A stretch of 64,000 bases of DNA, taken from the human T2T-CHM13v2.0 reference genome, Homo sapiens. The position numbers and the translations under genes are program-made. Of the stretch, positions 1,506 through 46,499 are shown one piece after another. The stretch lies in assembly GCF_009914755.1 (NCBI RefSeq), contig NC_060941.1; one strand, written 5' to 3'. The notes under the pieces are model-generated. The model made no database searches. It was not told the origin of the DNA and worked only from the letters and a program-made list of their open reading frames with translations. Within the stretch, counting starts at the first letter, position 1; every line of letters starts with the position of its first letter.

Positions 1506-1542
1506 CTTCACTTGTGACACCCTCCTCCAGATCATCACCCTT
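1506..1542 (-). CDS. TOM1L2: TOM1L2 exon 14 (37 nt, KGDDLEEGVTSE)
   Basis: cacAG acceptor, GTATGG donor, phase 0-1 joins exon 15. Confidence 0.97.
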
Positions 1543-3575
1543 CTGTGGGAGGAGCAGAGAAAGTGAAATTAGGGCACTGGTCCAAGCACTGCCCGCCCAG
1601 CCACCTCTGTCTGCCCATGGCCACCCTAGGACAGCACTGCCCAGGGTAGCCTGAACAAAACTTCCTAATTTTCCCTGTTTCCAGATTTCTGTAATAGTAA
1701 TATACTGCTCTTCTTATTGGAGAAACAGAAGCTTTGTTTTTAAAAAACAAAAGCAAAAAATTCAAACATGTTTTAGGTTTTGATCCTCCAGAAAGGCTGG
1801 AAAGAAAACTCCAAAAACGGTGCAGGCTGGTTCTCCAGCCTGGGCTGCAGAGGGCGGGACCCCACCTTTGGCACTCTTGAGGCTCTAGGGAGAGGCACAG
1901 AGCAGTAGCCACAGGGGGCTGAGCCTGAGCACACACAGGGTCACGTGTGCCCAACACAACACCCACTCACTGCCAGCCACAGGGTTTCTGGGAAGACGCT
2001 GTTGACACCAATAGCTGGAAACCGCATGAGGCCTTGATGGCTCAGGGCCACAAAGCCCACAGCACAGGGCCTGTCACTCAGTAGGTACTTTGGGAGTGGA
2101 GGCTGTGCCTCCAGAAGCCATGTCCTGCAGCCTCCTGGGAGCTGCACCAGCCTCCTCCCGTGGCCCAGATTATATTACCTGCTGCTGGCTCCTCAAGGAG
2201 CCATGGAGGCTCTGTGCACTCAAAAATTAAAGTGCATCAGACTTGATTTTGTTTGGAGAACATGGTAGTGTCTTGAGCTCATGGGGTTCCCTGGGGACTG
2301 GGGAAGAGCAGCATGTGCAGGGCCTCATTGGGAAGGGGCAGGATGGGGAAGTGACAAAGCCCTGGGCTGGGCTAGGAGACCTGGGTTCCTTCCTGACTCT
2401 ACCACTGACCTGCTATGTAGCCTTACTGGACACATCCCCTCCCTGTCTGGACCCTGGGGTCCCCCTTAGAAGTTAAGGACCTTGGTCCTTCCTGCCTTGC
2501 TTCTGTGAGAGAAGCAATTTCTTTTCGAGACAGCCCCTTGGGAAAGATGTCCCGGGGTGTGTTCTTCCTCCCTGACACCCAGGCAGCTGCCTTCTTTGGC
2601 AAGGCATGTGTTTGGAAAGCTGACCTTCTGGGGAGGAGGCCCAGAGCAGCCAGAGGCCCCAACCTGAGGCCTGCTGTCCTGGTGTGGGAGGTAGCCAGGT
2701 CACCAGCCCACAGACAGCCAGGCTGACCCTGTGGTTAAAGAACTCAACAGGCTCTTCTGCCTGGGGACAAGGCCCCCTACAGAGGAGGCACCTAGGAGGG
2801 AGATGAGGTGTCTCCAGCTCTGGGGGAGAATCCAACTACCCCATGACTCTGGGCAAGCCACTTCCCAGAGTGCACTTCTTCATCCGCCACCCTGGCCCCC
2901 TACTGGGCTGCTGAGAGTGAAAGTGCTTTGTAAAGAACAGAGGGAGGGGCCAGCAGTTATCACATGCAGCCACTGCAGCTCTCCTTTCTTGGGACCTGTT
3001 GCCATTTTCAGATGCATAGTATCCTCATCTTCTAGCCCTATCTCTGAGGATGGAGACAATGGGTCTTTGGGGCAGGGGTTCTTTTACATCAAAAATCAGG
3101 AAGGGAGGAGGGGGATGACAGCCAATTAAAAACAAAAGCACTGTGTGTATACTTCACAATTAAAAAAAAAAGAAATGAAAACAAAACAAAACAAAACAAA
3201 AAACATGCTCCCCCAACACTCCCTCCCCCAAAAAACCAAAGCACGGCACATACATCTGAAATGGAAAAGATACTGGGGGGAAGGCAAGTGTGTGTTTTGG
3301 AGCCAGCTACGGCTAGGACTGTGTGGGTGAAGGAGGCTGTGCCCAAGGCCTTGCCCCCAGCACAGTTGGCCTCCGCAGGCCGGGAGGCCACTGCAGCACC
3401 CACAGCTATGGGCTGATGTCGGGGAGGAGGGGCAGCTATGGAGCTTGCCCAGACCTCCCTTCTCCACTGACCCAGACAGGGGTGGAGCCCCTGCTGATGC
3501 TCCCCCAAGGCCTGTCCTCAGAAGAGCCTCTGCCGCTCCACACCCCACAGATGAAATAGAAAAGTCGAGTCTCAC

Positions 3576-3635
3576 CAGGTCGGTCCTGAGCCACACCTCA
3601 ATGTCGTCCATGACAGATGGCTGCGCAACGGGGAT
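3576..3635 (-). CDS. TOM1L2: TOM1L2 exon 13 (60 nt, IPVAQPSVMDDIEVWLRTDL; myosin VI-binding IEVWL motif), symmetric phase 0-0
   Basis: catAG acceptor, GTGAGA donor; IEVWL corresponds to TOM1 IEQWL. Confidence 0.96.
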
Positions 3636-5267
3636 CTATGGAGGCGGCAAGCAGCGGGCCAGGCAGCCCCCACACAGCCAGCGAGGGGAGACAGAACACC
3701 GGAACAAAGGAAATCATCAACAGCAACCCCAAATAAAACCAAAATGTACACAGAGCAAAAAAACACAATTGGCACAGCACACAGGGGCAACACAGGGCAG
3801 CCACGTGTGAGATGGCAGGTGAGGAAAGCAATGAGGTGCAAATGATAAGAAGCAGGCTCCCGGCAGGGCCGGCGGTAAGGAAGGTGGCTGTACGCGTTCT
3901 TGAAATGGAGAACTTTTTGACTATGAGTGTCCACTCTCACATTGCGGGGCCTCTCAGCCCGGGGCTGCAAAACACCTTCTAACTTCAGGAAGGCGCTGCC
4001 ACGCAGGCTGATTTTGAACTCAGCCACTATGACAGTCCGCTGTCAAGCCCAACCCAGGGAAGGCCAAGTGACAGCCTGCCCAGAGCGGGGTACAGGTGCT
4101 CAGAGGGCAGGGCAGCACCAGCCCCGGGGGGATGCAGGGGGTCTGTTTGCTCCGCTGAAGAGATTTTGAAATGCGTCCTGGTGCATTTCTGAGTGGAGAG
4201 GGGAACTGGAGGAGGTGCGTGCTCCGCTGGGCTGGGTGTGGCCTGGTAGACAGAGGCAGGCACATTTTACCATCAACAGAAACACAGCAAAAACGAGGGC
4301 TCTGATGACAAAGGGGACTATGGGGCTTTAGTCTTCTTTGTGTCTCTTTAGGGGAAATTCATGAAGCAGCCCTGAAAGCAACAGCTCCCTTTAGTCTCGT
4401 CCTTTCTTCCCTGTGTTCAATGGCTGGCTGTGCTTCAGGAGTCAAAGAAACCAAGTTCAGCTGAGCACTGGGGCGCAGCAGCCAGAGCCAGGGAGGTGAC
4501 AGCTTCCAGGCATACTAAGGTGTACCACGGGGTTGCCTGAGCAGTCACCTTGCTTGGGCCCCTGTGCCAAGCACCTCAGGGACAGAGACTCTGAAAAATG
4601 CACATGGCTAAAAAGGTTTAAGTTGCCATCAAATATGACATGATAAGAAGCTCCCTAGAAGCCATGTTAATGGAATGTTGGCTCCCAGCCTAGAGAAATG
4701 AGGTGATGACCCTTAATCACCTCCTCACCTACCCTGGCTCTGGGAGGTACCCTTCCGGGGCTCACTTGCAAGACCCCTATTTCTATTACAAAAATGCCAG
4801 CTCTGTCTATAGCTGGCTTCACCCAATGCCATGATCTAGGGTAAGACTAAAGTAAAAATAAGCAGTAAAAGGAATGCATACCCCAGTGTCTATCAAATGT
4901 AAAAAATAACACGACCTTCACAAAGAAAAAGAACAAAGAACACATATCACCAGCAGTGATGTGACAACTCCAGTCCTGGGGGTTGACACCTGCTGCTGAT
5001 GGTGGGGGAGGGTGGTTTGGGGTCCCAGGTAGAGTCCAGCACTCTGAGCAGGTATCTACGATGCCACCAGAGCTCTTCACTCCCTCAGTGAGCTCAGCTG
5101 GCCCCTTGCTCTGAGGAATGTGCTCTGTGTCCTAACTTCGGACCCAATGTGGGAAGCCCACAAGAGCACTTTCAGAAAGGCCCAAGCCAGTCACTGATCA
5201 GATTAGGAAGAGTCTGTGTTGCTCATTATTTCTTTGACTTACTGGGGAGTTAAGAATGTTGAATTGA

Positions 5268-10452: not shown

Positions 10453-10539
10453 CATTCCTTGGGTTATAAGCCAGCTGTCTATGGGCTCCAGGTCAGACTC
10501 CCCACCTCTACCTCTCTTCTGGGCCGAGGACAGAAAAGT
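10453..10539 (-). CDS. TOM1L2: Alternative in-frame TOM1L2 cassette exon (87 nt, TFLSSAQKRGRGGESDLEPIDSWLITQGM); 66-nt form if the CAG acceptor at 10519-10520 is used
   Basis: Pyrimidine tract with 71-nt AG-free zone, ATG|GTGAGG donor, phase 0-0, no stop, peptide resembles exon 13. Confidence 0.72.
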
Positions 10540-12573: not shown

Positions 12574-14161
12574 GCAATCTGCCTACTGCTGGGTGGAAAA
12601 CCTGCTGGAGTCATCAGGACCTTTGAAAACAGGGAGCTAGTCCAAGCCACACACACAAAGGGTGAAGGGCGGGAAGTCACTCACATCTCCTGGGCTCAGA
12701 CCCAGGCCTGGGCGCTGATAATGGCAGGGGTGCAGCAGGACACACCCTGGCATGGACAAGGCAGGTCCTGGACCCAGAGTGAGGGACAAATGAGGTCAGC
12801 CTCATAGGGGCACAACAGGGCTGCTCCCAGTGCAGGCCAGGGTTGGCCACGAGGAGGGGATGTCCTCACCAGGCAGTATCCTGGTAGGCCCCTGGCTGGG
12901 CTCTCTAATGCCCACGCTGGGGCAGGTGGGAGGACATTCTAAGTAATGGGAGAATCAGAGCCATGAGCACTGCATTGATTTTGAGTGTCCCAGTCTCAGG
13001 GGTTCAGGTGGCACTGCCCACTCCTGTGGAAAGGCACGGCACTGAGGACCCAAGGCAGCCAGCTGGCTCTTCTGCGCCCTCTGGTGACCAGTGCAGAGGG
13101 ATGCATGCCCTCAGATCCACCAGGTGAAGACCAGCATGGATGAGGGAGTGAGTCCCTTCCCCCAAGAAGGAGCATCCCGTGGAAACCAGCACTGCTGCCT
13201 GCCTGGGCCCATTGGACAGGGGCTTCAGAAGGCTAAAAATTGGGACCCAGTAAGCAAACAGCCCTTTGCAAACCTTCCTGTCCAGTGGACAGATGATCAC
13301 TGCCCTCTCTAGCCCAGCTGGGGGACCCAGACAGGAGTTCCAGCTGTTGTCGGCAGCTATTCCAAGGACCCTCCTCCTCCCTGCCCCTGCAAACAGACGT
13401 GCATTCATACACATTTCTTTGTTAGGCAAAAACAAAAATCTCATGAGAAGCATTAAGACACACATTCTTTCCCCTTCAGTAATCCGAAATTGTACAGAAA
13501 GCATGGTTATGTTTGGGGAGGCCCAAACACATACCATTCCCTCCACTTCACTGTGCCGCACCCCCTCACCGCCACAGGACACCCTCCCAGCCACCACCCA
13601 ACTGCACCAGCTCTGTAAACAAACCCTGGCTCTCGAGTGCCTTCTAATGGGGTTGGTACTGCTCTGCTAGGCCAGTGACAAATGGCCATCAGAGATGTGG
13701 CTCGGGTCAGCATTGTCCTTCCTGGTGCAGGCCATGGTTTTATCAGAGCACTGACCACCCTGTGGCACTGTAACAGGTGACCATAGGAGACTTGTGCCTG
13801 GAGAACTTGGGGCCACTGTGGTAGGAACAGCAGGGGTTCTGGAAATGGACACTAATCCTAGGATTGGAACCCCAGCTTGCTGTCTGCTCTCTGGGTGTCT
13901 CAGCCTGTCTCCCACCTGCCTGGGACTGTTTTCTCTTGGGTGGATTGGGAAGCTCATGTGTGGCCTCATCTCACGGGGTGAGGTGAAGACTCAATGAGGC
14001 ACTACCTGGGTTCCACGGGGTGTCCCCCGTGGGTCTCTCCCCCAGGGTGTCCCTGCCCCCTGTGCAAGCCAGTTTCTGCTGAATTACCCAGCCAGCTTTG
14101 CCAAACCACCTGACTTTCCCTCCAGAAGACTCCAGGCAGAAAAACAGGGTTAAAGACCTAC

Positions 14162-14237
14162 CCCTTCTGAACTCTGTTTTCGATTGTCTAGTGCAGAAGC
14201 AAGTCCTCCGACAGCCTGAGGATCCTCATAGGTTACC
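14162..14237 (-). CDS. TOM1L2: TOM1L2 exon 12 (76 nt, VTYEDPQAVGGLASALDNRKQSSEG)
   Basis: tccAG acceptor, GTAGGT donor, phase 2-0. Confidence 0.97.
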
Positions 14238-37319: not shown

Positions 37320-37454
37320 CCGCTGTGGTGTGTGTATGGGAGACAGAGCGTCCAAGTCTGCCATGGGAAATTCAACCCCTTTCCTCTTCAGCTCCTCATA
37401 TATGTGCACAACGCCGGTGAGATCAGGACTGCTTCGAAAGGCATCAGCCCATGC
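37320..37454 (-). CDS. TOM1L2: TOM1L2 exon 5 (135 nt, [12 protein letters not shown]...SPIHTPQR; VHS domain end)
   Basis: cccAG acceptor, GTAAGC donor, phase 0-0. Confidence 0.98.
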
Positions 37455-46349: not shown

Positions 46350-46499
46350 CTGGATCAGAGCAAGCACTTTGTCCTGTACAATGGTGGGAGGGTTGTTCTT
46401 GGGAGATATAATTTTGACCAGAACACTGTCGATGAAATCTCGGTTGGCCACAAGGATGTGGAAGCGGTGGCCACAGTTCTTCACACATGTCTCCAGCAC
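46350..46499 (-). CDS. TOM1L2: TOM1L2 exon 4 (150 nt, [14 protein letters not shown]...KVLALIQ; VHS core)
   Basis: atcAG acceptor, GTAGGT donor, phase 0-0; VHS signature LETCVKNCG. Confidence 0.98.

What the first reader, a model, noticed from the sequence alone, without database searches (positions are those of the whole stretch)
3638..3856. 219-nt AG-exclusion zone before exon 13 points to a distant branch point
On the minus strand there is no AG dinucleotide from 3856 to the acceptor at 3636-3637 (checked base by base; roughly 1e-6 by chance at 1/16 per position). The acceptor has a poor local pyrimidine tract. yUnAy candidates (CTCAT 3831-3835, CTCAC 3819-3823 and 3807-3811) sit at the far end, followed by a long UG/U-rich tract. 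Long AG-exclusion zones with distant branch points are a known signature of tightly regulated exons. Any variant creating an AG here would be expected to disturb splicing.
Basis: partly seen in the sequence, partly recalled or inferred. Interest (0 to 1): 0.7.

Follow-up and report, generated by a model that had tools for sequence, protein, structure and literature searches.

The report
Distant-branch exon carrying cilia-exit motif
A 219-base stretch without AG precedes an optional exon of the human TOM1L2 gene that encodes the motif reported to bind the cilium's export complex (BBSome); with no adenine where a branch point normally sits, the intron likely branches unusually far upstream, a known but uncommon design.

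Summary
The minus strand has no AG for 219 nt before TOM1L2 exon 13, the longest such run in the window (next 141). The exon is a 60-nt in-frame cassette, switch-like in human (PSI 20-100, mean 89) and broadly alternative in chicken (VastDB rows). It encodes EVWLR, the published BBSome-binding motif needed for ciliary receptor exit. Two divergent orthologous read-through ORFs keep the zone conserved and adenine-poor; the TOM1 paralogue has only a 30-nt zone. The branch site is unmapped. That nearer site is kept in both orthologues, whereas -185 is not. An upstream optional exon carries a second W-L motif and was never clearly found without exon 13. Verdict: new member of the known long-AGEZ/distant-branch class. 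The link to ciliary trafficking was not found in print and is inferred.

The parts
3638..3856 (-). AG-exclusion zone, 219 nt, 16 A only; 15 YGCY and 8 UGUG motifs
   Evidence: YGCY: 0.02% of 219-nt windows reach this count, shuffle p 0.003; UGUG shuffle p 0.0005
3857..3858 (-). first upstream AG, bounding the zone (-223/-222)
   Evidence: altered in P0210, compatible with a UGAY in P0211 (inferred from codons)
3831..3835 (-). candidate branch site CUCAU, A at -197
   Evidence: codon kept in P0210, apparently not in P0211
3819..3823 (-). candidate branch site CUCAC, A at -185; most Watson-Crick pairs to U2 (4 of 6)
   Evidence: -2 U lost (Ser to Pro) in both P0210 and P0211
3807..3811 (-). candidate branch site CUCAC, A at -173
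   Evidence: kept in P0210, undecidable in P0211
3734..3768 (-). U-richest part of the zone (about -133 to -99, with a U7 run)
   Evidence: sliding table (11-13 U per 20 nt)
3713..3720 (-). nearer candidate branch site UUGAUGAU, A at -82 and -79: the last adenosines before the A-free run
   Evidence: both A kept in P0210 (Asp-Asp) and P0211 (Met-Ile)
3683..3713 (-). pyrimidine tract -78 to -48 (26 of 31 pyrimidine) directly behind the -79 A
   Evidence: read from the sequence
3640..3713 (-). 74-nt run without adenine (-78 to -5), covering the whole normal branch window
   Evidence: longest on the strand, expected 2.5e-5 per window
3667..3671 (-). G5 tract (-36 to -32) between the pyrimidine tract and the acceptor
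   Evidence: kept in part in P0210, apparently lost in P0211
3618..3680 (-). predicted hairpin over the 3' splice site (-45..-29 paired with -3..+18); not more stable than shuffles
   Evidence: pair probability 0.55-0.98 by context; z -1.1, p 0.16
3636..3638 (-). acceptor UAG of exon 13
3576..3635 (-). TOM1L2 exon 13: 60 nt, phase 0-0, 20 residues, cassette exon
   Evidence: VastDB HsaEX0066459; skipped in 37 of 103 classifiable database isoforms
3585..3599 (-). codons for EVWLR, the published BBSome-binding motif
   Evidence: translation; Shinde et al. section 8
10453..10539 (-). upstream optional exon (87 nt; 66- and 63-nt forms from internal acceptors), phase 0-0, with a second I-x-x-W-L motif; likely an ancient tandem duplicate of exon 13
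   Evidence: mouse 63-nt row; sturgeon entry P0001

Best explanation
TOM1L2 exon 13 is an optional in-frame exon preceded by a conserved 219-nt AG-free, adenine-poor zone, and its intron likely branches at distant adenosines (a cluster at -173 to -211, probably shared with a nearer site at -82/-79), after which the spliceosome would scan to the first AG. Shown: the zone, the absence of any adenosine from -78 to -5, cassette behaviour in human and chicken, and that the exon encodes the published BBSome-binding motif. Inferred: selection removes AG so that scanning reaches the true acceptor. Also inferred: the space between branch site and exon holds UG/YGCY elements for repressors (MBNL/CELF type; motif assignments recalled) that skip the exon in some cell types, giving a TOM1L2 that keeps its myosin VI site but would lose BBSome binding.
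For: No A in -18..-44 against 2-10 at 14 other acceptors. Four yUnAy motifs lie within 50 nt of the zone's 5' end, where mapped distant branch points lie; 8 of 9 long-AGEZ exons in Corvelo 2010 used distant sites, often several (passages). AG is still absent upstream of -79 (0 in 142 nt, shuffle p 0.026), which a branch at -79 alone would not require. Zone conserved in P0210 (58 of 70 aligned codons identical) and P0211 (42 of 61), with 1 and 0 aligned K/E/Q residues inside against 8 of 52 and 2 of 18 upstream. Human exon PSI 19.95-100, mean 89.33, 90 samples, SwitchAS; chicken 60-nt exon PSI 3.91-100, mean 56.94, 59 samples, PanAS. YGCY 15 and UGUG 8 exceed shuffles. The motif is in the exon; in Shinde et al. 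its deletion abolishes BBSome but not MYO6 binding. The TOM1 paralogue exon has a 30-nt zone and a normal tract.
Against: No lariat maps the site (searched files cut at 4 million characters). The far motifs are weak (2-4 of 6 Watson-Crick pairs to U2) and -185 and -173 are followed by U-poor sequence (20-30% U). -185 loses its -2 U in both orthologues; -197 looks lost in one; P0210 has a Glu codon near -209 that may be GAG, i.e. an AG inside the zone. The -82/-79 site is better conserved and has its tract adjacent. Gooding 2006 estimate that only one-half to one-fifth of zones of 100 nt or more mark distant branch points. Taggart 2017 found distal sites contribute only moderately in three minigenes. 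No binding or knockdown data for any regulator were found. I could not see which human samples skip the exon.
Confidence: 0.58

Rival explanations
1. The working branch point is at -82/-79, with the tract at -78..-48 and a G-rich spacer to the acceptor; the far 142 nt are AG-free only because they are an adenine-poor UG/U-rich regulatory element.
For: Both adenosines are kept in P0210 and P0211 while the far motifs vary. The tract (26 of 31 pyrimidine) follows at once. Given composition, the far part's lack of AG is only p 0.026. One of Corvelo's long-AGEZ exons (MBNL1 exon 8) branched at -51/-64.
Against: The motif pairs with U2 mostly through G-U (2 Watson-Crick of 6). It leaves unexplained the cluster of four yUnAy just inside the far boundary and the adenine depletion upstream. 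Use of both sites is compatible with the best explanation.
Confidence: 0.27
2. The intron branches at a non-adenosine base in the normal window, and the conserved zone is purely a binding platform for regulators.
For: Non-A branch points occur (Mercer 2015 passages; rows with C or T). The last 20 nt before the acceptor are 75% pyrimidine.
Against: Branch points are predominantly adenosine. The local tract has only 4 U. It does not explain why AG is avoided for 219 nt.
Confidence: 0.1
3. The zone is a neutral low-complexity stretch whose lack of AG follows from base composition.
For: Composition explains much of the effect (shuffle p 0.009). Gooding describe a long zone caused by a repeat.
Against: No tandem repeat, single copy, conserved in two divergent orthologues. 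It ends exactly at a conserved alternative acceptor and is the extreme of the window for both AG and A.
Confidence: 0.05

Closest known systems
Long-AGEZ / distant-branch-point exons (Gooding 2006 PMC1431707: PTBP1 exon 11, TPM1 exon 3, GABBR1 exon 23; Corvelo 2010 PMC2991248: MBNL1 exons 6 and 9, CLK1/CLK3 exon 4, HTR4)
   Same: Zone of 150 nt or more, yUnAy candidates near its 5' end, alternative exon downstream, several candidate sites.
   Different: Branch site unmapped. No strong CURAY motif and no U-rich tract adjacent to -185/-173. The zone is UG/YGCY-rich, not PTB-type (UCUU/CUCU 4 against 10.5 in shuffles). The upstream donor is 6.6 kb away, so there is no steric mutual exclusion.
TOM1 exon homologous to exon 13 (G000:C22:35803732-35803791)
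   Same: Same length, phase and I-E-x-W-L motif; Shinde report that TOM1 also binds the BBSome.
   Different: Zone of only 30 nt with a normal tract; no row for this human exon among the TOM1 rows of VastDB Table S4.
Tandem duplicated, mutually exclusive exons (Martinez-Gomez 2022 PMC9741552)
   Same: Two neighbouring phase 0-0 exons share an I-x-x-W-L motif (shuffle p 0.019 within TOM1L2, 0.005 against TOM1's exon).
   Different: They are co-included, not exclusive: 113 of 114 entries bearing the upstream exon also carry exon 13, and the other has a garbled copy. TOM1/TOM1L2 were not found in that paper's text or held supplement (only 15,271 characters held).
G-tract-separated acceptors (REPA; bioRxiv 10.1101/363804, seen as search listing only)
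   Same: A G5 tract lies between a pyrimidine tract and the AG of an alternative exon.
   Different: Its positional definition was not read, so membership was not tested; the G5 looks lost in P0211.

Membership tests
Long-AGEZ / distant-branch-point exon | AG-exclusion zone of 150 nt or more before a verified acceptor | tested here: met
   219 nt; acceptor in RefSeq (hub table) and VastDB
Long-AGEZ / distant-branch-point exon | No good branch adenosine in the conventional position | tested here: met
   no A from -78 to -5
Long-AGEZ / distant-branch-point exon | Branch motif near the 5' end of the zone | tested here: met
   yUnAy at -211, -197, -185, -173; weak, 2-4 of 6 Watson-Crick pairs
Long-AGEZ / distant-branch-point exon | Pyrimidine tract adjacent to the distant motif | tested here: inconclusive
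   75-80% pyrimidine behind -211 and -197, 60-65% and U-poor behind -185 and -173
Long-AGEZ / distant-branch-point exon | Zone not caused by a repeat and kept in orthologues | tested here: inconclusive
   no repeat; conserved and A-poor in 2 of 2 divergent read-through ORFs, but seen only through translation, with one possible GAG near -209
Long-AGEZ / distant-branch-point exon | Exon alternatively spliced | tested here: met
   VastDB rows for human and chicken; database isoforms
Long-AGEZ / distant-branch-point exon | Branch point mapped more than 100 nt upstream | not testable with these tools
   no record for this intron end; searched truncated files
Mutually exclusive duplicated exon pair | Exactly one of two homologous exons per transcript | tested here: not met
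   both, exon 13 only, or neither: 29, 37 and 37 of 103 (one of the 29 scored by eye); upstream exon alone in 0 clear cases of 114
MBNL/CELF-repressed exon | Clustered YGCY or UG motifs upstream of the exon | tested here: met
   15 YGCY, 8 UGUG; motif-to-protein assignment recalled
MBNL/CELF-repressed exon | Binding (CLIP) and change on knockdown | not testable with these tools
   listing showed no relevant paper; no CLIP data at hand

The most novel reading that the evidence does not exclude
The zone is the control element of a splicing switch that sets how many BBSome-binding motifs TOM1L2 carries: none (both exons skipped), one (exon 13) or two (upstream duplicate plus exon 13). Cell types could thereby turn ciliary receptor retrieval off or up while leaving myosin VI binding intact. 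The duplicate predates the TOM1/TOM1L2 split, since TOM1 has a matching candidate 54-nt exon.
Probability: 0.3. Interest if true: 0.72.

Novelty: new member of a known kind. Interest (0 to 1): 0.47.

Why it matters
TOM1L2 is the adaptor that hands ubiquitinated receptors to the BBSome for removal from cilia, and that needs the motif in this exon (Shinde et al.). A conserved, switch-like skip of exactly these 20 residues would give cells a splicing-level control over Hedgehog and ciliary receptor signalling. I did not find this link stated: searches (listings only); 0 hits for 'splic' in the Shinde preprint; 0 for 'splic', 'exon' and 'BBSome' in a 2026 TOM1-family review. It also marks about 200 intronic bases where variants far from the splice site could matter. 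The splicing architecture itself is a known class.

Tried and rejected
Myosin VI motif: I first took exon 13's IEVWL for the myosin VI site (recalled). Hu 2019 passages say the IEXWL motif of Tom1 is not directly involved, and map binding to 437-463; Shinde agree. Rejected. Mutually exclusive pair: rejected. RNA structure as the cause: the whole region folds no better than shuffles (z +0.89); the hairpin over the acceptor has z -1.1; two long-range helices between the far cluster and the exon (I3 and I9) have pair probability 0.01-0.06. PTB-type tract: UCUU/CUCU not enriched; no UGCAUG or ACUAAY in the zone. U2 duplex energies of 6-12 pairs were all zero or positive and were not used; only pair counts were. 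Branch-point tables: Taggart S1 and Pineda & Bradley File S1 were cut at 4 million characters and say nothing. Taggart S5 and Mercer Data S2 hold no chr17 row beginning 17754. Mercer's high-confidence set covers about 17% of introns, so absence is weak; Mercer Table S1 was too large to read. Gooding's supplements gave no TOM1 name (the larger file is probably cut). PDB sequence searches with the two short exons gave only chance-level hits. Orthologous DNA was not obtainable; only translations were seen. A TCGA event TOM1L2|39513|ES could not be tied to an exon. No complex prediction was run.

Full report
Observation. The minus strand has no AG for 219 nt between 3858-3857 and the exon 13 acceptor at 3637-3636. 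This is the longest AG-free run on either strand of the window (next 141), and the other 14 acceptors have zones of 15-71 nt. Independent-base and Markov estimates give 1e-8 to 2e-9. The zone is also the adenine-poorest 219-mer (16 A, mean 52), so with its own bases shuffled the chance of no AG is 0.009. The empirical yardstick is 165 of 67,334 exons with a zone of 150 nt or more (Gooding 2006, PMC1431707; parts 1-2 of 8 read). It is not a tandem repeat, is single-copy and matches no Rfam family.

Anatomy. The other 14 acceptors have 2-10 adenosines in -18..-44; this one has none. An adenosine branch must therefore lie at least 79 nt upstream. There are two groups of candidates. The far cluster (-211, -197, -185, -173) sits just inside the boundary AG and makes 2-4 of 6 Watson-Crick pairs with the U2 box read from L012; the sequence behind -211 and -197 is 75-80% pyrimidine, behind -185 and -173 only 60-65%. 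The nearer site UUGAUGAU (-82/-79) is followed at once by a 31-nt tract with 26 pyrimidines, then a G5 run and a C-rich, U-poor end. The zone holds 15 YGCY and 8 UGUG (shuffle p 0.003 and 0.0005, among 14 motifs tried), and PTB-type motifs are not enriched. A hairpin over the acceptor is predicted but is no more stable than shuffles.

The exon. It is 60 nt, phase 0-0, and encodes 20 residues including EVWLR. Shinde et al. (bioRxiv 10.1101/2022.09.23.509287; passages and section 8) define EVWLR as the BBSome-binding motif, separable from myosin VI binding and needed for GPR161 exit from cilia; my numbering differs from theirs by one. Hu 2019 (PMC6673701; passages) exclude the equivalent Tom1 motif from direct myosin VI binding. 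VastDB Table S4 (Tapial 2017, PMC5630039; rows, section 5) lists this exon as HsaEX0066459: 90 samples, PSI 19.95-100, mean 89.33, SwitchAS. A 60-nt chicken TOM1L2 exon, orthologous by length and flanking intron sizes (my inference), is PanAS (59 samples, 3.91-100, mean 56.94). No mouse row for this exon appeared. Of the 120 proteins listed (of 1417 matched), 17 lacked the exon-14 anchor and were dropped. Of the other 103, 37 skip exon 13, 37 include it alone and 29 include it with an upstream optional exon (one scored by eye). A first pass with stricter anchors classified 83 with the same pattern. These are annotation models, many projected between species, so they are not independent.

Conservation. 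A chance open frame across the zone found five proteins; a profile search added none. Three are 96-99% identical and uninformative; two unnamed ones, P0210 and P0211, are divergent. A frameshift-tolerant alignment, which favours matches, gave 58 of 70 and 42 of 61 identical codons inside the zone. K/E/Q residues numbered 1 and 0 inside against 8 of 52 and 2 of 18 upstream. So the zone is conserved and stays adenine-poor. This sees AG only in part, and P0210 has an unaligned Glu near -209 that could be GAG. Both adenosines of -82/-79 are kept in both. The TOM1 paralogue exon has a 30-nt zone with a normal tract, so the long zone is not shared with TOM1.

Mapped branch points. Mercer 2015 Data S2 (PMC4315302) has a chr17 row at 17,752,200, which falls on the conventional -27/-28 adenosines before exon 14 and calibrates my hg19 offset (exon coordinates confirmed). 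It has no row for the end of the intron before exon 13. Taggart 2017 Table S5 (PMC5378181) has none either. Taggart S1 and Pineda & Bradley File S1 (PMC5959240) were cut before they could answer. The site is therefore unmapped, and uncut supplements may hold it.

Mechanism. Best reading (0.58): branching at distant adenosines, likely several, then scanning to the first AG, as described for this class. In Corvelo 2010 (PMC2991248; passages) 8 of 9 long-AGEZ exons used distant sites, often more than one, and such exons are skipped more often (43% against 28.6%). The intervening UG/YGCY sequence would bind repressors; that step is inferred from recalled motifs, and no data were found. Main rival (0.27): the branch is at -82/-79 and the far part is only an adenine-poor regulatory element. 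Lesser rivals are a non-A branch (0.10) and neutral composition (0.05). The claim that any new AG is harmful holds only downstream of the site in use (Bryen 2022, PMC9284458; abstract).

A second motif. The optional exon at 10453-10539 is also phase 0-0 and ends in a similar I-x-x-W-L motif (shuffle p 0.019 against exon 13, 0.005 against TOM1's exon). It occurs as 29, 22 and 21 residues, is low-inclusion in mouse (mean PSI 6.46) and is present in a sturgeon entry. Of 114 entries bearing it, 113 also carry exon 13 and one has a garbled copy, so the pair is not mutually exclusive. TOM1 has a matching candidate 54-nt exon with a CAG acceptor and GTGAG donor, the best of 9 candidate frames in that 7-kb intron (score 33, next 16). 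I could not check its annotation or expression. Whether the second motif binds the BBSome is untested.

Verdict. A real, conserved, non-canonical acceptor of a known class (new member; branch site not mapped) in front of a functionally pointed cassette exon. The link between its skipping and ciliary trafficking was not found in the searches made (listings and term counts, not whole texts; most subscription papers are outside the library). Interest 0.47.

Noticed in passing
window 10453-10539 (-): Optional exon with a second I-x-x-W-L motif, three acceptor forms (87, 66, 63 nt), conserved to sturgeon; never clearly found without exon 13 in 114 database entries.
   Followed up: partly
L009, G000:C22:35802208-35802261 (+): Candidate 54-nt in-frame TOM1 exon homologous to the TOM1L2 optional exon (both end in QGM before a GTGAG donor); annotation and expression not checked.
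   Followed up: partly
window 1540-1545 (-): Exon 14 acceptor is a NAGNAG (CAG AAG); VastDB lists both positions, so one lysine is optional.
   Followed up: no
window 1569-1570 (-): Mercer 2015 maps a conventional branch A here (-27/-28) for exon 14, in contrast to exon 13.
   Followed up: yes
window 46350-46499 and 37320-37454 (-): Further in-frame skippable exons: the 150-nt one is low-frequency alternative in VastDB; 462-residue database isoforms fit loss of the 135-nt one by length.
   Followed up: no
G000:C22:35800707-35802098 (L009): AG-free runs of 682, 246 and 216 nt in a TOM1 intron; the part seen is AC-rich simple repeat ending about 110 nt before the candidate exon, so likely repeat-caused.
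   Followed up: no
window 14159-14162 (-): VastDB's upstream donor coordinate is 3 nt off my converted exon 12 end; probably an assembly indel within the 10-kb intron.
   Followed up: no
P0145, P0146, P0189: Database isoforms that read from exon 13 into the downstream intron (open for 169 codons in human), suggesting retention or an alternative end.
   Followed up: no
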